A program made the translations under genes and the position numbers. The notes under the pieces were generated by a model, which saw only the letters and a list, made by a program, of their open reading frames with translations, made no database searches and was not told the origin of the DNA. A stretch of 14,226 nt of DNA. It comes from a virus. Positions 2,767-14,226 of this stretch are shown here, in pieces (position 1 is the stretch's first letter; every line of letters starts with the position of its first letter). The stretch lies in UHGV virus genome UHGV-0207341. One strand, 5' to 3'.

Positions 2767-3369
2767 TCAACCAAGAATGGACTTCAATGACAAATTGAGC
2801 TTATCAATTAATTTTTCATCCTCATAGTTTACAGACTTGATGTTTTTGAGCATCGCAGGCAATTCAGCATCACCAATTATCACAGGAATTATAGGAACAT
2901 AGTTTTCATCTTTTACCGTAGCTTTACGGAGAAAGCCCTCTACCTCTTTTCTTATATATGACTCCATATCTTCATTAGACAGAAGCAATATAGCCGCAGC
3001 GCTATTGTCTATAGCCTGATTAATTTGCTTTTCAATAATCTGCCCGGGCAATATGTTATTTTCATCAAACCATACATCAAAACCTAACTCATTAAGCTTA
3101 CAAGTTATTTGACGGGCCTTATCTTTTTCTTGTACGGGATACATTAGAAATATTTGCTTTCCTTTTTTAACGGCCTTTAGTCTTCTTTCCCTTAATTTCA
3201 TTAACACAATCAAACTCAGGCCAGAATAGGCAAAAGATAAGCCAATCACGGAGATGATAATCTCATCATTAACTCCTTGAAATAAATATGGGAGCCGTGG
3301 AATAAGAGCCATAAGAAACCCAACAACAGCCAATGCAATTGAAATAATATAAAGAGTATTTTTTTTCAT
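2767..3369 (-). CDS. Membrane-anchored TIR-like domain protein (2 predicted N-terminal TM helices plus C-terminal TIR-like domain)
   Basis: 200-aa ORF. Two hydrophobic segments at about residues 6-24 and 37-57, then a basic linker. Residues about 72-200 show the TIR pattern by eye: IFLMY strand, helix, DVWFDENNILPGQII, EKQINQAIDNSAAAILLLS, SYIRKEVEGF helix, VPIIPVII strand. ATG at 3367-3369 directly abuts the TAA of the upstream gene (TAAATG). Gene looks strongly AT-rich versus neighbouring phage core genes. Confidence 0.75.
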   Translation of the reverse strand: MKKNTLYIISIALAVVGFLMALIPRLPYLFQGVNDEIIISVIGLSFAYSGLSLIVLMKLRERRLKAVKKGKQIFLMYPVQEKDKARQITCKLNELGFDVWFDENNILPGQIIEKQINQAIDNSAAAILLLSNEDMESYIRKEVEGFLRKATVKDENYVPIIPVIIGDAELPAMLKNIKSVNYEDEKLIDKLNLSLKSILG

Positions 3370-3786
3370 TTACACACCCTTAATCCACAAAACAAAGGAA
3401 GCAAAAAATAATATGCCGACTAAATTACACCCAATACATAAAACCCAAATTTGACCTTTTGGATTTCCTGTTCGCCCTTCCCAATCTTGATGAAAAGACA
3501 TGATCCCCAGTAATACAAAAAGAGAGAAGGCAAGAAAGCTAGTAGTTCCAATGTACTGATTAACCACTTGGTTAACCGTGGTTACTGTTTGAACAGTTTT
3601 AGTCAAATCATATAAATTCAACAATGATGCACCAATTGTTGATAATATCAACTCATTCCCAAAGTAAAAATCACTCTTTTGCCAACCAGAGGATCTGGCA
3701 AGTTTTTTTACAAAAGCCCCACATAGAATCATCAACAATGGAAAAATTAAAGCAACAACGTATTTATTACCAATGACATCAATCAT
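3370..3786 (-). CDS. Small polytopic inner-membrane protein (about 4 predicted TM helices), unknown function; first gene of the TIR operon
   Basis: 138-aa ORF with ATG at 3784-3786 and AAGGAA about 9 nt upstream. Hydrophobic segments at about residues 10-26, 45-60, 82-98 and 112-135. Stop is immediately followed by the ATG of the TIR-like gene. AT-rich. Confidence 0.7.
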   Translation of the reverse strand: MIDVIGNKYVVALIFPLLMILCGAFVKKLARSSGWQKSDFYFGNELILSTIGASLLNLYDLTKTVQTVTTVNQVVNQYIGTTSFLAFSLFVLLGIMSFHQDWEGRTGNPKGQIWVLCIGCNLVGILFFASFVLWIKGV

Positions 3787-4112: not shown

Positions 4113-4955
4113 TCATGCACGATCATTTGACTCAGCATCTGCTGCACGCTTGCTGCGCGAAGATGCACTTTTACTACCAATCTTTCGACAGTTCTTTCTA
4201 TCCCTGGCTTCATTTTCTTTAAATTTGTTATATGTCTCAGTATCAAAAAACGAAATTGTTTCAACCTCATCTTTTGGTATGAGCACACGGAAATCTTCGA
4301 TATTAAGCCGAGACATTCCACTTATCACACCACTATCAAGATAATGTTGGTGATAGTTAGTCGTGATACTAATCGTTAGATCATCTTTATCCCGATATCC
4401 GCTTAACATCGGGAGAAGTTCAAGGTGCTCTGAAAGCCCGTTTTCTAACGCCGGACAAGTAACAAGGCCAACATAGATTTTGCGAGACGACAGAGTTGCT
4501 ATGATCGGAAACTGTCTTGCGGACGCTTCCATAAGTAATGATTCGAAAGCGTTATTACCCACAGCTTTAGCTAAGGCATCCCAGCGACGATCTCCACGTG
4601 ATGTGCGTAACTTATTTCCAAAACCTGAAATCGCAGCGAGGACAATTGAAATCATAACCCATGCTATCTGTTTGATTTCATTTATTCTTTGAAGTTTGTC
4701 TTTCGATGAAGACAACATGCCATTAAAACTGTCAGGTGTTAGATTCAAGGCATTAGCCAGCCAACGAAACCCTCCGCTGACGTTCAAAATAAAGGTGAAA
4801 AAACCGCCAAGGAGAAAAAAAACGATACCCCAGGCAGCCACAAAAAAATAAGCGTCCCAGCCGTTGGAACGCTTATATCGGTATCTTGTTGAAAGTGATA
4901 GGTTTACATAAATAAAACCACTAACCAAAATCACTGCTAAAAGTAATGTTGCCAT
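4113..4955 (-). CDS. Membrane protein of unknown function (3 predicted N-terminal TM helices plus about 170-aa C-terminal soluble domain with a basic tail)
   Basis: 280-aa ORF with ATG at 4953-4955, overlapping the stop of the upstream 71-aa ORF (TAATG). Hydrophobic segments at about residues 3-17, 36-57 and 97-113. Family not recognised. Followed by its own terminator. Confidence 0.7.
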   Translation of the reverse strand: MATLLLAVILVSGFIYVNLSLSTRYRYKRSNGWDAYFFVAAWGIVFFLLGGFFTFILNVSGGFRWLANALNLTPDSFNGMLSSSKDKLQRINEIKQIAWVMISIVLAAISGFGNKLRTSRGDRRWDALAKAVGNNAFESLLMEASARQFPIIATLSSRKIYVGLVTCPALENGLSEHLELLPMLSGYRDKDDLTISITTNYHQHYLDSGVISGMSRLNIEDFRVLIPKDEVETISFFDTETYNKFKENEARDRKNCRKIGSKSASSRSKRAADAESNDRA

Positions 4956-5440: not shown

Positions 5441-5674
5441 TTAATGCAGCCAGCTGTCGTCTTCCCACACCTTCTGCATAATTTTCATCACTTGTTTTCT
5501 TTCTTCGTCCTGTTGCAGTCCGGTCAGTTCCACACCGTTAGAGCTACCTTTGCGGATACGAATTACCGTTTTGGGATACAGGGGGCGCAGATTGCGGTAA
5601 AGCTCGGATTCAAGGGCGTCCAGTGTAGACTGGCTAATCTTCTGCTCTTTATCGATCATTATTTCAATGCGCAT
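5441..5674 (-). CDS. DinI-family protein (resembles the C-terminal DinI-like half of phage 186 Tum antirepressor)
   Basis: Taking the internal ATG at 5672-5674 (GAGGTG 5 nt upstream), the 77-aa product begins MRIEIMIDKEQ and ends WEDDSWLH. This parallels E. coli DinI (MRIEVTIAK ... ETWESADDWFV) by eye. The longer track ORF (start 5746) overlaps the upstream gene and is unlikely. Confidence 0.75.
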   Translation of the reverse strand: MRIEIMIDKEQKISQSTLDALESELYRNLRPLYPKTVIRIRKGSSNGVELTGLQQDEERKQVMKIMQKVWEDDSWLH

Positions 5675-5684
5675 AAAAGTCACC

Positions 5685-5873
5685 TCAGCTGATGACATCC
5701 ATTGAGCGGTTGTATTCGTGGGTTCTGATTTTTGCCATGAGTTCATCAGTCAATTCAGAAACCCACTGCAGAGCCAGCCCCTTCTCTTCATCACTACACT
5801 CACTAGCCGCTACAAGCTTAAGAAAAAAATCAATGCGCTGGAGCTTCAAAGACTCCAAAAAATAGTCCTGCAT
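5685..5873 (-). CDS. Small hypothetical protein (62 aa) immediately upstream of the DinI-like gene; possible N-terminal part of a Tum-like antirepressor
   Basis: ATG at 5871-5873 preceded by AGGAGG about 4 nt upstream. Its TGA stop sits inside the ribosome-binding site of the DinI-like gene. Lies directly downstream of a LexA box. Confidence 0.6.
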   Translation of the reverse strand: MQDYFLESLKLQRIDFFLKLVAASECSDEEKGLALQWVSELTDELMAKIRTHEYNRSMDVIS

Positions 5874-6027: not shown

Positions 6028-8442
6028 TTAATACAGGTTCCGCCACTTATCATCTTCCTGCAAACGCTGGTTCCGATAGAAGATACGCAGGCCTGCTCCT
6101 GACGGAATGCTGCCGCCGCGAAGGAGTAAATCGACCTCTTTCTCGCTGCCATCAAATCCTCTGGACTTCAGTTCATAGACGAGCTGCTGTCGTTGATGGT
6201 CTGTAATTCGCTGTTTGTAGTCTTTACGCCGTTTCGGTTTCACCAGGCGTAACCTTGCTGCCAGTTCCCGGCGCTCTTTTTTGCTCATACTGTGCAGGTA
6301 ATCGTGCAACTCCTTGTCATCCATACGGGTGATATCCGTTCTGGTATCTCCATCAGCTGATTTGTCTTTCCCTTGTTGGTACAAATTTTCAGCAAGGGGA
6401 CAGTTATTGCCACGAGTCCAAGGGGCGCAAGCGCCCTGGTCGGCTACCGCCTCCTGAACGTCAACGGCCTTACGAACCATTTTCCACTTCACTGCATGAG
6501 TGCAGATCTTGCCCTCTGCAATGGGTGACCAGATGCCATAAATACGAATGCCGTGATCGCCATAGGCGGTCGGCTCTTCGTTGATTTCATAAGCGGTTCT
6601 GATAAGGTGATATTTACGGGGAACCAGTACGCCGCCCTGCTTCATGATGTAGGTGGCAAAACAACCAGCATCAGCAGCAGCCAGGATGGCATCAAGGCGC
6701 GGGTCATCCAGTATCGGCGCACCTGCTTTTTTGTCACCCTGTTGCCTTGCCGCCTGACCAGCCAGCAAGCGAAGTTCACGGTAAGCCTGACGTCCCGGAA
6801 TACCAAAGAAGCGGAACTGCTGAACACGATGCAGAGACGCCCAGGCATTAACGTATTCGGCGTTATCACGCAGGGATTTACCCGTTTCCTTGCTGATCTC
6901 GCCAGCCAGACCACGCCCGTCAATGTTCTTACTGATGTATTTCGCGATGTAGCTTGTCGGTGTTCCTTTGCGCGGGTTAATCAGCTCAGACTTAAAGCGT
7001 GGCCCCGTGTTGTTGCCCAGCTCCTCGCGGTCTACACGGATGGCAAACTTACGCAGTAATGCAGTGATGGCGCGGCGGTCTTTTTTACGCATGAAGCACA
7101 TGAGATGCCAGTGCACAGTACCGTCATGGTGCGGCTCAGCCACCCGCACGCCATACCAGCGCAACCCGGTTTTGTGCATTGCCTTACGAAATGCAGCAAA
7201 CATGCCGACCATATAATCGCTGCTTTGTCTTACCGTCGCATTTGTCCAGGTCGGGTTGGGTCTGCCGTTGTTGAGCGTGGAATGGAAACGTGACGGACAG
7301 GTGATAGTGTAGAAAACGGCGCAGTCACCGCGCATTTCCGCGATAAGCTCCAGACCTTTAACACAGGCCATCATCTCATTGCGGCGATGCGCAGGGTTGC
7401 TGCTGCTGGCGTTTACCACATCCTCCATGTCCAGCGTGTCGCCGTCTTCGTTCACCAGTTCATGAGAACGGAAAAACTCCAGCGACTTACGGCGCAGCTC
7501 ACGTTTATGCATCACGGCTTCATAGCTGACATAGGGAGATGCTTTTTTGCTGACCAGGCAGACAGCACGCAACTGCTCTTCCCGCCATTCGCAACGCATC
7601 TTCCATAATTTCCGATACCACCAGTCGGCGCACAACATACGCGCCAGCGAACCCGGAATGAGTTCATAGGGCACGGGTTTACGGCGGTTTCTTTTCCGAC
7701 GGAGTAGCTCAAACGCAGGTGGGATGACATCCAGACGCAGGGTTTCCGCCGCCACCTTTTCCCATGTCTTGCGGATTTCTTCTGGCTTAACGTCATCGGT
7801 GGCATACAAATCGCCACAAGCTGCATCAAGGCACATGCTCATATGCGCAGCTACCAGGGTGGACAGGCGTTTCACCTGATCCTGACTCATTTCAGGCAGG
7901 ATCAGCAGGCCCTCCAGCCCTTGATGGCTTGCCATAAAACGGAAAGAAGCAGACAGCTGACTGTCACGTACACAATCCAGTCGCTCCAGACATGGCTTAA
8001 TCGTCTCACGCAAATAGCGGGAATAAGCCTTTGGCCTGCCCAGGCTGCTGAAGTATTCGATACGTTGCATCAGCGGCTTGCTAATATGGGTGGGCTGGGC
8101 GCTGACGTCCGCCAGAATGACCATGTCCGGGTTAAAACGCTGCTGTTCATGCGCTAGCTTTGCCCGGCTAATGAGCTTATCCTGCTCCATTTCGCGCTGG
8201 ACAGGATCACGAGATTCATTAAAGAAATAACGCTCCCAGACCTGCTCACTCAGTGCATCGCGGCGCAGCTGTTCCTGCTCATTATCGGCAGCGTACAGAG
8301 TGATCAGGTTTAAAAGTGCAGACTCCGGAGCAACTTCCGCCGGGTCCAGATAAGGGTTAATGGCCTTTTTCGGGCCGTTCCATGAAAATGCTGCAGCGGC
8401 CTCGTTAAAGCCGCTAGAGTTGCTCATATCGTCATGACTCAT
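6028..8442 (-). CDS. A: Replication initiation protein (rolling-circle initiator endonuclease), P2 gpA family
   Basis: 804-aa ORF, the largest in the early operon. Size, position downstream of small early genes and general character fit P2/186 A protein (recognition by eye; catalytic motifs not verified). Start ATG at 8440-8442 overlaps the Dam stop (ATGA); a second in-frame ATG five codons downstream is an alternative start. Confidence 0.8.
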
Positions 8443-10461: not shown

Positions 10462-10687
10462 TTATGCATCCCACAACACATCTACTAAAAAATTTTTGAT
10501 ATGATCCATTACCAACATATTGATAGCTAGAAGGAATCATCAATGTTGAACCCGGTTGAAAGAGAGCGTTTAGAGCAACTTGAAAACGAGATCTCCAGTC
10601 TTCGCGATGAGGTTGCTGTTCAACGAATTCTTGTTTCAGGTCTGATCCACTCCTTATTTCGAACTGACTCAGCAAATCAATCTGCAT
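10451..10687 (-). CDS. Alternative hypothetical early protein (78 aa) in operon orientation; mutually exclusive with the plus-strand ORF 10543-10791
   Basis: ATG at 10685-10687 with GGAGGAG about 8 nt upstream. Operon-consistent orientation, overlapping the next gene start by 11 nt. Its C-terminal third runs through an AT-rich promoter-like stretch, which argues against it. Confidence 0.3.
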   Translation of the reverse strand: MQIDLLSQFEIRSGSDLKQEFVEQQPHREDWRSRFQVALNALFQPGSTLMIPSSYQYVGNGSYQKFFSRCVVGCINGY

Positions 10688-10791
10688 TTTTTGAGCTCCT
10701 CCGCGAAGAATTAAACAAACTTCCTTTAGGTTCGGTTAAACAACAAGAATTCACTCATCTGATACAGACACTGATAGATCGTTACCGATAA
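10543..10791 (+). CDS. Hypothetical helical protein (82 aa) antisense to the early operon; mutually exclusive with the minus-strand ORF 10451-10687
   Basis: ATG at 10543 with GAAGGA 7 nt upstream. Translation reads as a plausible amphipathic helical protein. Orientation opposes the surrounding operon and its 3' end overlaps the convergent 79-aa ORF by 10 nt, so the call is uncertain. Confidence 0.35.
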   Translation: MLNPVERERLEQLENEISSLRDEVAVQRILVSGLIHSLFRTDSANQSAFFELLREELNKLPLGSVKQQEFTHLIQTLIDRYR

Positions 10792-11021
10792 ATACTTCGC
10801 CGATAACGTTCAAGAGGTGATGTCTTTATACGCATCACTTCTTGTACTTTTTCACCACGTATAAAGGTTCCATCCTTTAGCGTGAAAAAGTAGCTACCAT
10901 CGCCCGACAACGACGGATAGCAACAGAGCAAATCATCTTCAGGTACTGAATAACTCTCCCCTCTGTAACGAAACTGATAAACCACTTCACTTTCTGCCGC
11001 ATACATTTGGACTTTCTCCAT
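10782..11021 (-). CDS. Hypothetical early protein (79 aa)
   Basis: ATG at 11019-11021 with only a weak ribosome-binding site. Protein-like translation. An overlapping ORF in another frame starts right after cII (see findings). Confidence 0.45.
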   Translation of the reverse strand: MEKVQMYAAESEVVYQFRYRGESYSVPEDDLLCCYPSLSGDGSYFFTLKDGTFIRGEKVQEVMRIKTSPLERYRRSIYR

Positions 11022-11180
11022 TTTCTCGTGGTCAATTCAGACAGCAATTCATCTTGTGAATGACATGGATGCCAGCGTTTACCATCCTCACCCATGATCC
11101 AGCCGTGACCGTAGTGCATTGCCGGGCTTTGCTTTACCAGCAGCGATGCAAATGATGGTTCTTTCGTAAGCATAAGCACC

Positions 11181-11690
11181 TCACAGCAAACCGAATGAAG
11201 CACCGAGGCCAGTCACGGTATCAACTGCGCTCGCCATCGCAGGATTAGCCTGTAAACGGGCCTGCAATGAAACAGCAGCCAGCGCCATCAGTCGTGTTAC
11301 AGAGTTAATGCTGCTGATAGCATCACGACGACCTGCACTGGTTTTTACATCGCCAGATACCGCACCTGCAGCAACACGCCCGATCTCTGCGGTTGCACTC
11401 ATGACGTAATGTGGCAGTTTCTCTTTTGCCACCTCATTAATTGGTACACATGGCAGACAATGAATCTGTGCCAGAAAACCATCTACCAGCGTTGAATCCT
11501 CAGTCAGATCGGTAAGCAGCCAGATGTCTGGTGCGGTTAATAAATGAGGTTGAGCTGGGTTCAGCTTGTTCCGCAGAATCTGCACATTCATGCCTGCACG
11601 TTCTGCCAGTTGCACCAGGTTGTGGCGCAACGCGAATGCACGACAGGCTTCATCAAAATGTGGATGTTTGGAAACTTGGTAATCAAACAT
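11181..11690 (-). CDS. cII: CII-like transcriptional activator (phage 186 CII family)
   Basis: 169 aa from ATG at 11688-11690 (GGGGTG 6 nt upstream; the track's 11744 start is a TTG overlapping apl). The N-terminus [10 protein letters not shown]... and the 169-aa length match my recollection of 186 CII. Position immediately downstream of apl fits. Confidence 0.7.
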
Positions 11691-11722: not shown

Positions 11723-11944
11723 CTAGTTGAATACAACATTGCAATCAGTAAGTGCATCAACGGTAAGAGCAGCAAGGTTGATCATTACCTTTTCTCTTTT
11801 TTTGTCCTTCCGGAGACGATGCCGAGGGATGCGGCCATCAGCCAGCATATCGTTGATTGTGTCGATAGAAAGACCAGTAAGTTCGCTATAACGCTCAATT
11901 GTGACGTGTGGTGTGTTCAGAGTGATTGAAATGTTTGGGTTCAT
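11723..11944 (-). CDS. apl: Apl/Cox-like excisionase and switch repressor (small HTH protein)
   Basis: 73 aa from ATG at 11942-11944 with AAGGAA about 9 nt upstream. Contains an HTH-like segment ([17 protein letters not shown]). First gene of the leftward operon, divergent from cI. Confidence 0.65.
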
Positions 11945-12090
11945 GGTGCAACATTCCTTCTTTAATTCGGCTTGTGGCGAGCCGTTGTTTATCGTGATTA
12001 GTTGTGAAGGCTCCAAAAGAAGACTTCGAGGTCAACTTTAAGATCGCTTTTGGAATCTGTCAATGCAATTTAGATTGTTTTGGAGGACTC
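11945..12090. promoter_or_regulatory. Lysis-lysogeny switch region between divergent apl and cI (candidate face-to-face lytic and lysogenic promoters)
   Basis: 146-bp intergenic region. On the minus strand, TTGACA (plus 12058-12063), a 17-nt spacer and TAAAGT (plus 12035-12040) form a good lytic-promoter candidate firing toward apl. Its position between apl and the cI start matches the face-to-face arrangement described for 186. No convincing plus-strand lysogenic promoter found by eye. Confidence 0.4.
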
Positions 12091-12654
12091 TTGAATTTCA
12101 ATAGCGGCGGAAAGAAAGTGATTGAACGTTTGGTTGAGGCGTATGGTTTCACCACTCGTCAGGCCCTTTGCGACCACTTAGGGGTTTCAAAGAGCACAAT
12201 GGCAACCCGCTACATGCGTGACATTTTTCCAGCAGATTGGGTACTTCAATGCGTTGTAGAAACTGGTACTTCAATTGATTGGCTGGTATCAGGGAAAGGT
12301 GAGTTAAAAACCACAGCAGTCAACTCTTTGGTAGACGTTGAAACTCGCGAACTAAAAAATGGAGAGGCTATTGCACTTGGAACGCACAAGATTGATCCAG
12401 TCTTTCTTCTCAATGAAATAAAATCTGCATTAGCGATAAAAATTAACCAACATGTTTACATTTGTGACCGAGAAGACACTACCATTTCTGATGGTCAATG
12501 GTTGGTGGATATAGAAGGAAAACTGAGTATTAAAAAAATCAATTTGATACCAGTCAAAAGAGCAATGGTATCTGGGGATGGTTTTTCATTTGAATGTGAT
12601 ATTAGTGATATAAAACCTATAGCTAAGGTTCATACCGTAATCAGTGAGGCTTAA
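12091..12654 (+). CDS. cI: CI-type immunity repressor (phage 186 CI family)
   Basis: Translation has an N-terminal HTH (EAYGFTTRQALCDHLGVSKSTMATRY ... ETGTSIDWLVSGKG) and a C-terminal domain of 186-CI character. There is no in-frame ATG before the HTH. A TTG at 12091 with GGAGG 4 nt upstream gives 187 aa and leaves the lytic-promoter candidate upstream; the track start (GTG at 12004) would bury that promoter in coding sequence. Confidence 0.65.
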   Translation: MNFNSGGKKVIERLVEAYGFTTRQALCDHLGVSKSTMATRYMRDIFPADWVLQCVVETGTSIDWLVSGKGELKTTAVNSLVDVETRELKNGEAIALGTHKIDPVFLLNEIKSALAIKINQHVYICDREDTTISDGQWLVDIEGKLSIKKINLIPVKRAMVSGDGFSFECDISDIKPIAKVHTVISEA

Positions 12655-14106
12655 ATGGATATTGAGTGGAATTGGGATCAAGATGACGAATTTCTTGGTG
12701 AAAAATTACCTGCTGATACATTGGACAGAAAAAAGTACGCAAAATATCTTTATGAAATCTGTGCTGCACGCGGTGCTAAATCCAATCTCGTAGTTAACAT
12801 TAATGCGGAATGGGGGGCTGGAAAAACATATTTTACTAAACGCCTAGCCAAGACAATTTCCCACTACCATCCCACAATATACATTGATGCTTGGAAAGAA
12901 GATTTTACTGAAGACCCATTGCTCACAGTATTTAGTGGAATTAAAGATCAATTATCTGGTCAATCTGATAGCTTTACTGCTTTAATCAATTCAACAATTG
13001 AGAATGTCGGTCCTTTGCTAAAAACAGCGGCACCAGTTATTATTGATGGATTAATACAAAAGTTCACAGGGGTTGACTCCTTTTCTAACCTAACTAAAGA
13101 CTTATCATCTAAGCTAATAGAAATACACGCAGAAAAATCAACGAGAATAGAGACAGTAAGAAAAGGAATTAGTCGTTGGGTTGAATTCATTGGGCGAAAA
13201 GATGGAATAGATAAAGAGCTTCCATTATTTATAATAATTGATGAACTTGATAGATGTAGGCCCGATTTTTCCATTAGTCTTTTAGAAATCTCCAAGCATA
13301 TTTTTAACATCCCTGGCGTAGTATTTATTATTGCCACTGACACCCAACAATTACAGCATTCAATAAAAGTTATATATGGCACTAATTTTTCAGCAAGTCA
13401 TTATCTAAGCAGGTTTTTTGACCGTCGATTCCTTCTCCCAACGCCAGAATACAAAGACTTACTATTAACAAAAACAGGTGAAAACATAATTTCGGAATTT
13501 AATTCTTTACGTAAAAAATTAATTCCATGCCCACAAGACATCACATCATTTGTTAAAAATTGTTCATCCATATTATTATCCATAAAAATAAACATCAGAG
13601 ACGCTGTAAAAATATACGAGAGGCTAATAGACATACTTATCACGTCAAATAAAACATTTGACCCCAATCTAATGTTGATATTATCTGCATTTAATTTCAA
13701 AGATCATGATGTATATGCAAAAATAAAATCAAAAGAAAAGCTAATTCCTAGTCCTCTCAACACAGAGATAGATTTATCATTTGATTTATCTTATGAAACT
13801 ACACAAGTCAAGTACTTCCAAGCTAATGGTGGTGTTTATAGTAATACGTATAAACAAAAAGAAATTTCAACAAATGTTCTATTTTACATAGAGACTGCTT
13901 GGAACACCTTAACGATAGCAAGAACCGCACCTGTTGGCACGCGACCTTACAATACTCCAGAACTTTGGATGGAAGGAGAGTTGTCTCAGGAGGAATCATT
14001 AGCGAACTTTCTCAAAATGGGATACGCCAAAAGCCGGTACAATGAAAGTGAACTAAAAATTCATCAATATTTCGATTTAATTGAACTGAGCACAACATTT
14101 GATTGA
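12655..14106 (+). CDS. KAP-family P-loop NTPase (soluble variant), accessory gene in the repressor operon
   Basis: 483-aa ORF. Walker A in NINAEWGAGKTYF, the KAP-typical IDAWKEDF motif, and Walker B in FIIIDELDRCRP (the DELDRC signature). ATG at 12655 follows the cI TAA with zero spacer, with GAGG 5 nt upstream. Looks strongly AT-rich. No obvious TM insert between Walker A and B. Confidence 0.8.
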   Translation: MDIEWNWDQDDEFLGEKLPADTLDRKKYAKYLYEICAARGAKSNLVVNINAEWGAGKTYFTKRLAKTISHYHPTIYIDAWKEDFTEDPLLTVFSGIKDQLSGQSDSFTALINSTIENVGPLLKTAAPVIIDGLIQKFTGVDSFSNLTKDLSSKLIEIHAEKSTRIETVRKGISRWVEFIGRKDGIDKELPLFIIIDELDRCRPDFSISLLEISKHIFNIPGVVFIIATDTQQLQHSIKVIYGTNFSASHYLSRFFDRRFLLPTPEYKDLLLTKTGENIISEFNSLRKKLIPCPQDITSFVKNCSSILLSIKINIRDAVKIYERLIDILITSNKTFDPNLMLILSAFNFKDHDVYAKIKSKEKLIPSPLNTEIDLSFDLSYETTQVKYFQANGGVYSNTYKQKEISTNVLFYIETAWNTLTIARTAPVGTRPYNTPELWMEGELSQEESLANFLKMGYAKSRYNESELKIHQYFDLIELSTTFD

Positions 14107-14226
14107 TGTATGAGTTCACCTAAACATACATTGACCACTGTTTAAATATGGGTCTTCCCCGATCATGGTGGGAAGACTCAGTACGCCATATTCAGTTTCC
14201 CATAGTGGAACATAACTCCCAGTTTA

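What the first reader, a model, noticed from the sequence alone, without database searches (positions are those of the whole stretch)
12655..14106. KAP-family NTPase translationally fused onto the 3' end of the cI repressor gene
Seen in sequence: the KAP NTPase ATG directly follows the cI stop (GCTTAAATG), so it should be co-expressed with the repressor in lysogens. The gene looks strongly AT-rich relative to phage core genes. In 186-type phages as I recall them, cI is followed by int, so this gene appears to be extra cargo between repressor and integrase. Walker A/B and DELDRC motifs are intact, suggesting an active NTPase; unlike many KAP proteins there is no obvious TM insertion. Inference: a lysogen-expressed accessory function, most plausibly anti-phage defense or exclusion. 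The window ends 120 nt after it, so partner genes cannot be excluded.
Basis: partly seen in the sequence, partly recalled or inferred. Interest (0 to 1): 0.75.

Follow-up and report, generated by a model that had tools for sequence, protein, structure and literature searches.

The report
Prophage defence-candidate NTPase behind the repressor
A 186-type prophage carries an extra ATPase-like gene wedged between its repressor and integrase genes; it sits in a slot where related prophages keep anti-phage genes, so it is very probably an untested anti-phage defence gene of a candidate family that is already catalogued.

Summary
ORF 12655-14106 (483 aa) starts on the base after the cI stop (TAAATG), is AT-rich (34% GC vs ~50-53% for phage core genes) and is a KAP-family P-loop NTPase (PF07693, E=9e-36). 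Walker A and Walker B/DELDRC are intact and there is no transmembrane insertion. It is coupled to cI, not fused.

Phage 186 has cI and int overlapping by 1 nt, so the gene is extra cargo. In E. coli W (99.8% identical) the order is cI-KAP-int-attR-rcdA. In the window an ISEc53-like IS has inserted 43 nt after the KAP stop.

Best reading: a lysogen-expressed, single-gene anti-phage NTPase with a variable sensor end. The function is untested. cI-int and int-primase hotspots in P2-like phages and KAP defence proteins are already published. Verdict: new member of a known kind, moderate-to-low interest.

The parts
12655..14106 (+). KAP-family P-loop NTPase gene (483 aa), PADLOC candidate family PDC-S20
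   Evidence: ORF. PF07693 E=9e-36. PDLC04959 PDC-S20 E=4e-82 over residues 20-411. 100% identical protein P0001, named 'NTPase KAP [Escherichia coli]'. AF2 model pLDDT 82.
12805..12828 (+). Walker A / P-loop (AEWGAGKT, residues 51-58)
   Evidence: Sequence. W53, G54, G56 and K57 are invariant in 107 homologs.
13018..13095 (+). Low-confidence helical hairpin (residues 122-147) at the position where classical KAP proteins carry TM helices; here it is soluble
   Evidence: AF2 pLDDT below 50 only for residues 122-147. Maximum KD hydropathy is 1.53 and lies elsewhere.
13228..13257 (+). Walker B and KAP signature (FIIIDELDRC, residues 192-201)
   Evidence: Sequence. D196, E197, L198, D199, R200 and C201 are invariant in 107 homologs.
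13450..14103 (+). Fast-evolving C-terminal region (residues 266-483): an AAA+ lid-like helical bundle plus an alpha/beta subdomain with no known fold match; conserved tail YFDLIELSTTF
12091..12654 (+). cI repressor gene (187 aa from TTG 12091; the mechanical ORF starts at GTG 12004)
   Evidence: PF07022 E=8e-30 and PF16452 E=7e-24. Annotated as 187 aa in relatives. SD GGAGG at 12082-12086.
12310..14125 (+). Variable module inside a conserved backbone: CI linker and C-terminal domain plus the cargo gene
   Evidence: blastn of the E. coli W locus against prophages with other cargo: homology stops at L001 9401-9411 (window ~12300-12310) and resumes at L001 11226 (window 14125). GC is 0.33-0.36 throughout.
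12646..12657 (+). Coupling junction: SD GAGG, 5 nt, stop TAA abutting ATG
   Evidence: Sequence. The same layout occurs in the E. coli JNE151685, Citrobacter, Kosakonia and Leclercia alleles, with TAA or TGA stops.
11741..11944 (-). apl/cox-like excisionase-repressor gene (67 aa), first gene of the divergent lytic operon
   Evidence: Annotated as a 204-nt CDS at the equivalent position in E. coli W. Position is as for apl in 186. No Pfam hit.
12035..12063 (-). pR-like sigma-70 promoter match (TTGACA-17-TAAAGT) facing apl; consensus match only
   Evidence: Scan of E. coli W at L001 9164-9136, which equals window 12063-12035. The number of promoter-like hits in the region is not above the shuffled expectation.
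14150..14226 (.). Terminal ~77 nt of an ISL3-family (ISEc53-like) insertion sequence, inserted 43 nt after the KAP stop, between KAP and int
   Evidence: The match to E. coli W ends at 14149 and the rest matches ISEc53 ends. Same insertion point as in E. coli CE10, where the 8-bp duplication TTATACAT is visible.

Best explanation
The gene is accessory cargo of a 186-type temperate phage. It sits in a variable slot of the lysogenic (pL) operon between cI and int, and most likely acts as a single-gene anti-phage defence protein expressed in lysogens.

Shown:
- It is a soluble KAP-family P-loop NTPase with an intact active site.
- It lies inside the prophage.
- The slot holds different, often defence-type, genes in sibling prophages.
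- The NTPase core is under purifying selection, while the C-terminal region is the fastest-evolving part of the locus.

Inferred for expression: it is transcribed with cI from pL (and from pE during establishment). It is translated by termination-reinitiation at UAAAUG with help from a GAGG Shine-Dalgarno, so its level follows that of CI. In intact relatives a hairpin plus T-run directly before the int ATG probably ends most maintenance transcripts after the KAP gene.

Inferred for mechanism, by analogy with RdrA, STAND and other KAP defence proteins:
1. The variable C-terminal alpha/beta domain recognises a component of an infecting phage.
2. This licenses NTP-dependent oligomerisation (ring formation) of the NTPase domain.
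3. The assembled, NTP-hydrolysing complex arrests infection.

Because no effector domain is recognisable, the arrest would come either from the NTPase activity or assembly itself, or from a host or phage factor it engages. That last step is the weakest.
For: Identity and active site: PF07693; motifs invariant in 107 homologs.

Defence candidate: PADLOC PDC-S20, E=4e-82. The second KAP type in the same slot matches PDC-S20 sub-model PDLC04956 end to end, E=3e-173.

Cargo status: 186 has cI and int overlapping. E. coli W has cI-KAP-int-rcdA.

Hotspot: SNIPE-associated protein, GmrSD+HEPN, AAA ATPase, KAP2 or a 63-aa ORF sit at the same place.

Single gene: there is no conserved partner among 55 upstream and 33 downstream neighbours of distant relatives, and those neighbours are often R-M, GmrSD, AbiC, Fic or Phd genes.

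Evolution: in the non-Yersinia relatives, Apl is 94-99%, Int 89-98% and CI N-terminal domain 81-94% identical, while KAP C-terminal region is 17-78%. dN/dS is below 0.35, so the gene is functional.

Coupling: the junction is conserved.

Terminator-like hairpin before int: (z=-3.5).

Literature: KAP-domain proteins protect against phage and need Walker B and the C-terminal region (PMC13552941). A single-gene KAP system, 'Reve', from P4 hotspots has been validated (PMC13586616). cI-int hotspots are reported in K139-like phages (PMC9122126).
Against: - There is no experimental evidence for PDC-S20 or this protein; a full-text search for 'PDC-S20' found nothing.
- RdrA, the closest fold, needs its partner RdrB (PMC9994260, listed); none is present here.
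- Some relatives have an extra upstream gene: GIY-YIG in Enterobacter and a 327-aa protein in Yersinia. The protein might therefore need a partner.
- Transcription from pL and translational coupling are inferred from layout, and pL itself was not located by the consensus scan.
- A prophage-borne defence must spare its own phage after induction, and no self-immunity element was identified.
Confidence: 0.65

Rival explanations
1. It is the sensor/switch subunit of a multi-component system. On its own it does nothing and needs an effector encoded elsewhere: a nuclease such as the GIY-YIG protein seen upstream in Enterobacter, the 327-aa protein seen in Yersinia, or a host factor.
For: No effector fold in the protein. 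The closest fold, RdrA, works with RdrB. GIY_YIG_2 lies directly upstream in Enterobacter islets at the same att site. A 307-338-aa gene lies between cI and KAP in Yersinia and in about 8 viral contigs.
Against: In the window's clade (Escherichia, Citrobacter, Kosakonia, Leclercia) the only neighbours are cI and int, with a zero gap. There is no conserved neighbour across the wider family. PADLOC classes the family as single-gene, and the GIY-YIG and 327-aa proteins have no PADLOC hits.
Confidence: 0.15
2. It is a lysogeny-control accessory. The NTPase acts on CI or Int, for example by assembling or remodelling the CI oligomer or modulating integration and excision, rather than on foreign phages.
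For: Translational coupling to cI, which is typical of subunits that act together. Across the first ten prophages compared, the CI C-terminal domain type tracks the cargo type. The gene lies in the lysogenic operon next to int.
Against: 186 and many siblings manage without it. The same CI allele (CTD 96% identical) occurs with and without a KAP gene. Unrelated defence genes occupy the same place. Family members occur outside prophages next to R-M and Abi genes.
Confidence: 0.08
3. It is a non-defence moron or an addiction-type module that benefits the prophage or host in another way, such as stabilising the prophage or a stress or fitness function.
For: AT-rich, horizontally acquired cargo expressed in lysogens fits morons in general. 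The gene is retained in degraded prophage remnants: Leclercia L099 and Enterobacter islets.
Against: The family is a PADLOC defence candidate. Its slot-mates are defence genes. A conserved NTPase with a hypervariable C-terminus is typical of immune sensors. No toxin or antitoxin-like partner is present.
Confidence: 0.08
4. It is a decaying or neutral passenger with no current function.
For: In the window the IS insertion next to it suggests a prophage that may be degrading.
Against: The ORF is intact and 99.8% identical in 11 E. coli genomes. dN/dS is 0.05-0.31. Catalytic motifs are invariant over 107 homologs down to 32% identity.
Confidence: 0.03

Closest known systems
PADLOC phage-defence candidate PDC-S20 (single-gene KAP NTPases; sub-models PDLC04956-04959)
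   Same: Direct HMM match: E=4e-82 to PDLC04959 over residues 20-411, and weaker matches to the other three sub-models. Same size class, soluble, single gene. The other KAP in the same prophage slot matches PDLC04956 at full length.
   Different: The last ~70 residues are not covered by the model. The family is only a candidate; I found no published test.
RdrA, the ATPase of the RADAR defence system
   Different: RdrA is ~790-850 aa against 483 aa here, with 11-16% identity and TM-score ~0.4. No RdrB deaminase gene is nearby.
Validated KAP or KAP-like single-protein defences: EF_KAP and relatives (PMC13552941), Reve (PMC13586616), Tmn (PMC13001434), PifA of F
   Same: P-loop NTPase domain of KAP type fused to an uncharacterised C-terminal region. 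For EF_KAP, Walker B and the C-terminal region are both required. Reve is a single gene from a P4 hotspot. The PifA HMM matches the NTPase part, E=4e-12.
   Different: EF_KAP and Tmn are membrane proteins with TM helices; this protein has none. Reve is stated to be undetected by PADLOC, unlike this protein. PifA is ~720 aa and matches only over residues 26-269.
Defence hotspots of P2-like phages: GpA-GpQ (tin/old), Z/fun, the 'integrase-primase' interval, and the cI-int hotspot of Vibrio K139-like phages
   Same: A variable, co-oriented cargo slot flanked by conserved phage genes and filled with defence genes. Rousset 2022 describes a cI-int hotspot in K139-like phages. [quoted passage not shown]
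   Different: Here the slot is resolved for enterobacterial 186-type prophages. It begins inside cI (after the HTH domain), ends ~60 nt before int, and belongs to the lysogenic operon. In this clade the cargo is translationally coupled to cI.
QatA of the QatABCD system
   Same: KAP-type NTPase. Weak HMM matches around Walker B (PADLOC E=3e-8; NCBIfam 36 bits).
   Different: NCBIfam score is 36 against a cut-off of 600. No QatB, QatC or QatD genes nearby. Not a member.

Membership tests
KAP family P-loop NTPase (PF07693) | Profile match above Pfam's gathering score | tested here: met
   124.1 bits against a cut-off of 20, E=9e-36, residues 25-267.
KAP family P-loop NTPase (PF07693) | Walker A GxxxxGK[ST]-type loop and Walker B hhhhDE(L)DRC | tested here: met
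   AEWGAGKT (51-58) and FIIIDELDRC (192-201); invariant in 107 homologs.
KAP family P-loop NTPase (PF07693) | Transmembrane helices inserted in the NTPase domain (frequent in the family as originally described; from my own knowledge of Aravind et al. 2004, and as stated for Tmn; not obligatory) | tested here: not met
   Maximum 19-residue hydropathy is 1.53, on a core strand. The AF2 model shows a soluble helical hairpin at residues 105-180.
PADLOC PDC-S20 (candidate single-gene defence) | Match to a PDC-S20 HMM | tested here: met
   PDLC04959 E=4.3e-82, 275 bits, residues 20-411 of 483 against profile positions 18-413 of 464.
PADLOC PDC-S20 (candidate single-gene defence) | Stands alone (no obligatory partner gene) | tested here: met
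   Flanked only by cI and int in five lineages. No conserved neighbour in the wider family. Optional extra genes occur in Yersinia and Enterobacter.
PADLOC PDC-S20 (candidate single-gene defence) | Protects against phage | not testable with these tools
   Needs plaque assays. No publication found.
RADAR (RdrA/RdrB) | RdrA-like ATPase fold | tested here: inconclusive
RADAR (RdrA/RdrB) | Adjacent RdrB adenosine deaminase gene | tested here: not met
   The neighbours are cI and int or an IS.
QatABCD | QatA equivalog score and QatB/C/D neighbours | tested here: not met
   36 bits against a cut-off of 600. No such neighbours.
Tmn / EF_KAP-type membrane NTPases | TM helices anchoring the NTPase | tested here: not met
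   No TM segment.
Prophage defence hotspot (P2/186-type) | Same flanking core genes with different cargo in related elements | tested here: met
   Flanks are 81-99% identical at protein level (non-Yersinia relatives), while the cargo differs: two KAP types, SNIPE-associated protein, GmrSD+HEPN, AAA ATPase, 63-aa ORF.
Prophage defence hotspot (P2/186-type) | Cargo enriched in known defence genes | tested here: met
   GmrSD, HEPN and SNIPE-associated annotations appear in the slot. This is a sample of rows, not a full census.

The most novel reading that the evidence does not exclude
The KAP NTPase and the CI repressor form a functional pair: a 'guarded repressor'. From my own memory (not tested here), 186 CI assembles through its C-terminal domain into a wheel of seven dimers. 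RdrA, the closest fold to this protein, forms heptameric and tetradecameric rings. The two genes are translationally coupled with a conserved zero-nucleotide junction. In this clade the CI C-terminal domain and the KAP gene diverge together as one low-GC module. The NTPase might dock on the CI wheel and fire when an incoming phage's anti-repressor or an induction signal disturbs CI. Alternatively, CI might keep it silent so that the prophage's own lytic growth is spared.
Probability: 0.05. Interest if true: 0.8.

Novelty: new member of a known kind. Interest (0 to 1): 0.35.

Why it matters
If the gene protects lysogens, it would give experimental standing to PADLOC candidate family PDC-S20. 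That family is large: about 1,300 representatives of 50%-identity clusters at E<=1e-30. It would also provide a compact, soluble KAP NTPase with no effector domain, which raises a real mechanistic question about how such a protein stops a phage. It also defines, for enterobacterial 186-type prophages, a cargo slot inside the lysogenic operon whose contents are expressed together with the repressor. That slot is a convenient place to look for further defence genes. The gene is present in E. coli W, a standard laboratory and industrial strain, so the tests are easy. None of this overturns current views, because prophage hotspots and KAP-type defences are already established.

Tried and rejected
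1. Isolated phage genomes: no close homolog, only 28-33% identical KAP genes in unrelated phages. The gene is known only from prophages and viral contigs.
2. Sequence search of the PDB with a 107-sequence profile: no hit at E<=1.
4. Membership of QatA, PifA, Tmn or RADAR was considered and rejected.
5. An obligatory CI-CTD/KAP pairing looked attractive, because each cargo type had its own CTD type. It was weakened by strain Ec15103, where a CI 96% identical in the CTD to that of a KAP-less prophage precedes a 60-aa ORF plus a KAP gene. The low GC of the CI-CTD is also general to this prophage lineage, whatever the cargo.
6. 'Cassette swapping' as the sole cause of divergence was rejected for the window's clade. 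Synonymous divergence of int is as saturated as that of the KAP gene, so the Escherichia/Citrobacter/Kosakonia/Leclercia alleles look like co-linear descendants with faster protein evolution in the KAP C-terminus.
7. A separate promoter for the KAP gene: promoter-like hits are not above the shuffled expectation, and none lies between cI and the KAP start.
8. Rfam: no RNA family in the window.
9. Literature: no hit for 'PDC-S20'. Vassallo 2022 does not mention KAP or P-loop proteins. The sequence of 'Reve' was not retrievable because no supplements are held, so its relation to this protein is untested.
Full report
**Observation.** The window carries the immunity and early region of a 186-type temperate phage. 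On the minus strand lie an apl-like gene, cII (PF06892), fil (PF10893), DUF5347, a Dam methylase and replication gene A (PF05840). On the plus strand lies cI (PF07022 + PF16452). The ORF 12655-14106 (483 aa) begins on the base after the cI stop (GCT TAA ATG). It has 34% GC (GC3 27%), against 49-53% for cII, A and the portal gene. It matches PF07693 KAP_NTPase (E=9e-36). It has Walker A AEWGAGKT (51-58) and Walker B FIIIDELDRC (192-201). It has no TM-grade hydrophobic segment: the maximum 19-residue hydropathy is 1.53, on a core strand. Two points need adjusting. The genes are separated by a stop codon, so they are coupled and not fused. cI most likely starts at TTG 12091 (187 aa, SD GGAGG 4 nt upstream), as annotated in relatives, because a pR-like promoter match lies within the longer mechanical ORF.

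**What follows the gene.** The same DNA (99.8% identity) is in E. coli W and ten other complete E. coli genomes. There the order is apl-like, cI, KAP, int, then the host gene rcdA, so the gene lies inside the prophage. The match to those genomes stops at window 14149. The remaining 77 nt are the end of an ISL3-family element (ISEc53-like). It is inserted at the same TTAWAYAT site as in E. coli CE10, where the 8-bp target duplication is visible. In the window's genome the IS therefore separates the KAP gene from int.

**Cargo and hotspot.** In phage 186 itself, cI and int overlap by one nucleotide with nothing between them. The homology between E. coli W and sibling prophages with other cargo breaks inside cI at window ~12310 (CI residue ~73, the end of the HTH domain). 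It resumes at window 14125, 19 nt after the KAP stop. Between these points, prophages with the same backbone carry one of the following:
- a 69%-identical KAP allele (JNE151685);
- a different 443-aa KAP (33% identity, NTPase domain only; LD91-1, E2348/69);
- a YdcA-like 60-aa ORF plus a KAP of that second type (Ec15103);
- a SNIPE-associated protein (ST12468);
- GmrSD + HEPN (TW11681);
- a 662-aa AAA ATPase (strain 3502);
- only a 63-aa secreted-looking ORF (214-4, NCTC9113, CX12).

All are co-oriented with cI and int. The slot is therefore a variable cargo site of the lysogenic operon, populated largely by defence-type genes.

**The family.** The protein matches PADLOC's candidate single-gene family PDC-S20 (PDLC04959, E=4e-82). 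Matches to PifA (4e-12) and QatA (3e-8) are weak and limited to the NTPase domain. NCBIfam gives only 36 bits for QatA against a cut-off of 600. Full-length homologs grade from 100% to ~33% identity across Escherichia, Citrobacter, Enterobacter, Leclercia, Kosakonia, Ewingella, Rahnella, Hafnia, Serratia, Yersinia, Klebsiella, Pectobacterium and Aeromonas. In a library of one representative per 50%-identity cluster there are 1,314 relatives at E<=1e-30 and 7,255 at E<=1e-10. Most are 450-560 aa and align over residues ~1-360 only.

Contexts by lineage:
- Citrobacter (85%), Leclercia (64%) and Kosakonia (56%): cI-KAP-int with zero gap.
- Klebsiella (36%): cI-KAP-int with a 25-nt gap.
- Yersinia (35%): cI, a 327-aa gene, KAP, int.
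- Enterobacter (58-64%): GIY-YIG, KAP, with or without int, in a remnant at the same att site.
- Ewingella (47%): a small HTH gene followed by KAP in a chromosomal islet.

Among the 80 best viral-contig relatives, 24 of 66 upstream neighbours are CI and 31 of 74 downstream neighbours are P2-type integrases. The junction is 0 nt or a 4-nt overlap in 12 of 13 loci of 43% identity or more. Among distant chromosomal relatives no neighbour is conserved. Neighbours include type I R-M S subunits, GmrSD, ResIII/EcoEI, AbiC-like, Fic and Phd genes.

**Evolution.** Relative to the E. coli W prophage, and setting aside the distant Yersinia prophage (45-75% in these proteins), Apl (94-99%), the CI N-terminal domain (81-94%), CII (81-92%) and Int (89-98%) stay conserved. 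The CI C-terminal domain (29-72%), the KAP NTPase part (36-91%) and above all the KAP C-terminal part (17-78%) diverge. Nei-Gojobori estimates give dN/dS of 0.05-0.09 for the NTPase part and 0.11-0.31 for the C-terminal part. Synonymous sites are near saturation, so the values are rough. The gene is therefore functional, with a fast-evolving C-terminus, which is the pattern expected of an immune sensor. In the first comparison each cargo type had its own CI-CTD type. However, the same CI allele (CTD 96% identical) is found with and without a KAP gene, so this linkage is best explained by adjacency.

**Expression (inferred).** By the layout of 186, where pL transcribes cI and then int, the gene is part of the lysogenic transcript. 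No promoter-like site lies between cI and the KAP start, and promoter-like hits in the region are not above expectation. The last cI codons (…AGT GAG GCT TAA) supply a GAGG 5 nt before the ATG. The stop abuts the start in five lineages even though the stop codon varies. This is a classic termination-reinitiation arrangement. In intact relatives an 8-bp GC-rich hairpin followed by T6 directly abuts the int ATG and buries a GAGGG (z=-3.5). Maintenance transcripts may therefore largely end after the KAP gene.

**Mechanism.** I commit to a lysogen-expressed, single-gene anti-phage NTPase. Its variable C-terminal domain senses a phage component, and its KAP domain then oligomerises and hydrolyses NTP to arrest infection. 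The defence assignment rests on three things: family membership in a candidate set, slot-mates, and evolutionary pattern. It also rests on published tests of other KAP-domain proteins: EF_KAP and three metagenomic KAP proteins need Walker B and the C-terminal region (PMC13552941), and the single-gene KAP system Reve from P4 hotspots is validated (PMC13586616). The effector step is unknown. Tmn acts by ATP turnover and Mg2+ export but is a membrane protein (PMC13001434), and RdrA needs RdrB. Rivals are a sensor that needs a separate effector (0.15), a lysogeny-control accessory (0.08), a non-defence moron (0.08) and a neutral passenger (0.03).

**Novelty.** The gene is annotated in RefSeq as a KAP family P-loop NTPase and is already captured by PADLOC as a candidate. 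A cI-int hotspot was described for Vibrio K139-like P2-related phages (PMC9122126). The 2026 survey of P2-like prophages assigns 8% of their defence systems to the integrase-primase interval (PMC13586616). What is added here:
- the exact anatomy of the slot in enterobacterial 186-type prophages;
- the conserved coupling to cI;
- the soluble, effector-less architecture;
- the RdrA-like fold.

This is a new member of a known kind. It is worth a simple experiment in E. coli W but would not surprise a specialist. Interest 0.35.

Noticed in passing
window 14150-14226; L098 (E. coli CE10) 6119-8040: An ISL3-family (ISEc53-like) element is inserted ~37 nt upstream of the int start, at the same TTAWAYAT site in the window and in CE10. 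In CE10 it carries a ClbS/DfsB-like passenger gene. A third prophage has ISKox3 in the interval (H97). The insertion cuts int, and the terminator-like hairpin before it, off from the lysogenic operon and may lock the prophage in place.
   Followed up: partly
window 2767-3786 (minus strand): A low-GC (34-36%) two-gene block sits between the portal gene and the DinI/replication region, which is the classical P2 tin/old (GpA-GpQ) hotspot. It consists of a 200-aa TIR-domain protein (PF13676 E=3.5e-17; PADLOC SAVED_TIR, PDC-S66 and ThsB-like hits) preceded by a 138-aa protein with no hits (phrog_25392). E. coli W carries GmrSD at this position, and JNE151685 carries a TIGR02391 protein.
   Followed up: partly
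window 4113-4955 (minus strand) and 5441-5746 (minus strand): A 280-aa protein of unknown function (phrog_3630) and a DinI-like protein (phrog_189), the latter at the position of 186 tum. Neither has a PADLOC hit.
   Followed up: no
window 12310-12654; L001, L002, L083, L096, L097, L106, L107: The CI C-terminal (oligomerisation) domain is itself hypervariable (29-72% identity where the HTH domain is 81-94%). It is low in GC (0.32-0.39) in all prophages of this lineage, whatever the cargo. In TW11681 the annotated cI is 316 aa long and abuts GmrSD.
   Followed up: partly
L001 11263-11290 (E. coli W); equivalent in L097 and L098: A GC-rich hairpin plus T6 directly abuts the int ATG and sequesters a GAGGG. 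It is kept with compensatory changes in prophages with different cargo. It may act as a terminator or translational attenuator of int in lysogens. It is absent from 186, where cI and int overlap.
   Followed up: partly
L097 5776-5967; L113 3081-3263; L114 1994-2185: The smallest occupant of the cI-int slot is a 60-63-aa Cys-rich ORF with a signal-peptide-like N-terminus, annotated as YdcA family in one genome. It is present in many E. coli 186-like prophages. Its function is unknown.
   Followed up: no
L087, L102-L105 (Enterobacter); L099 (Leclercia): Degraded prophage remnants at the same att site keep the KAP gene. In Enterobacter the order is GIY_YIG_2, KAP, then (in the E. kobei loci L102-L105 only) a truncated int, and in one case (L087) an ars operon follows instead of int. 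In Leclercia only apl-like, cI, KAP and int remain. This suggests the gene is retained by the host after the phage decays.
   Followed up: partly
window 10543-10791 (plus strand) and 10877-11203 (minus strand): An 82-aa ORF on the opposite strand is inserted between DUF5347 and fil. fil is annotated as a partial pseudogene in E. coli W.
   Followed up: no
L107 6802-8024; L115 3809-5037: A Panacea (SocA) domain gene plus a ~250-aa partner lie between int and the attachment site in Klebsiella and E. coli prophages. This is a second small cargo slot, consistent with the 'integrase-att' hotspot mentioned in PMC13586616.
   Followed up: no
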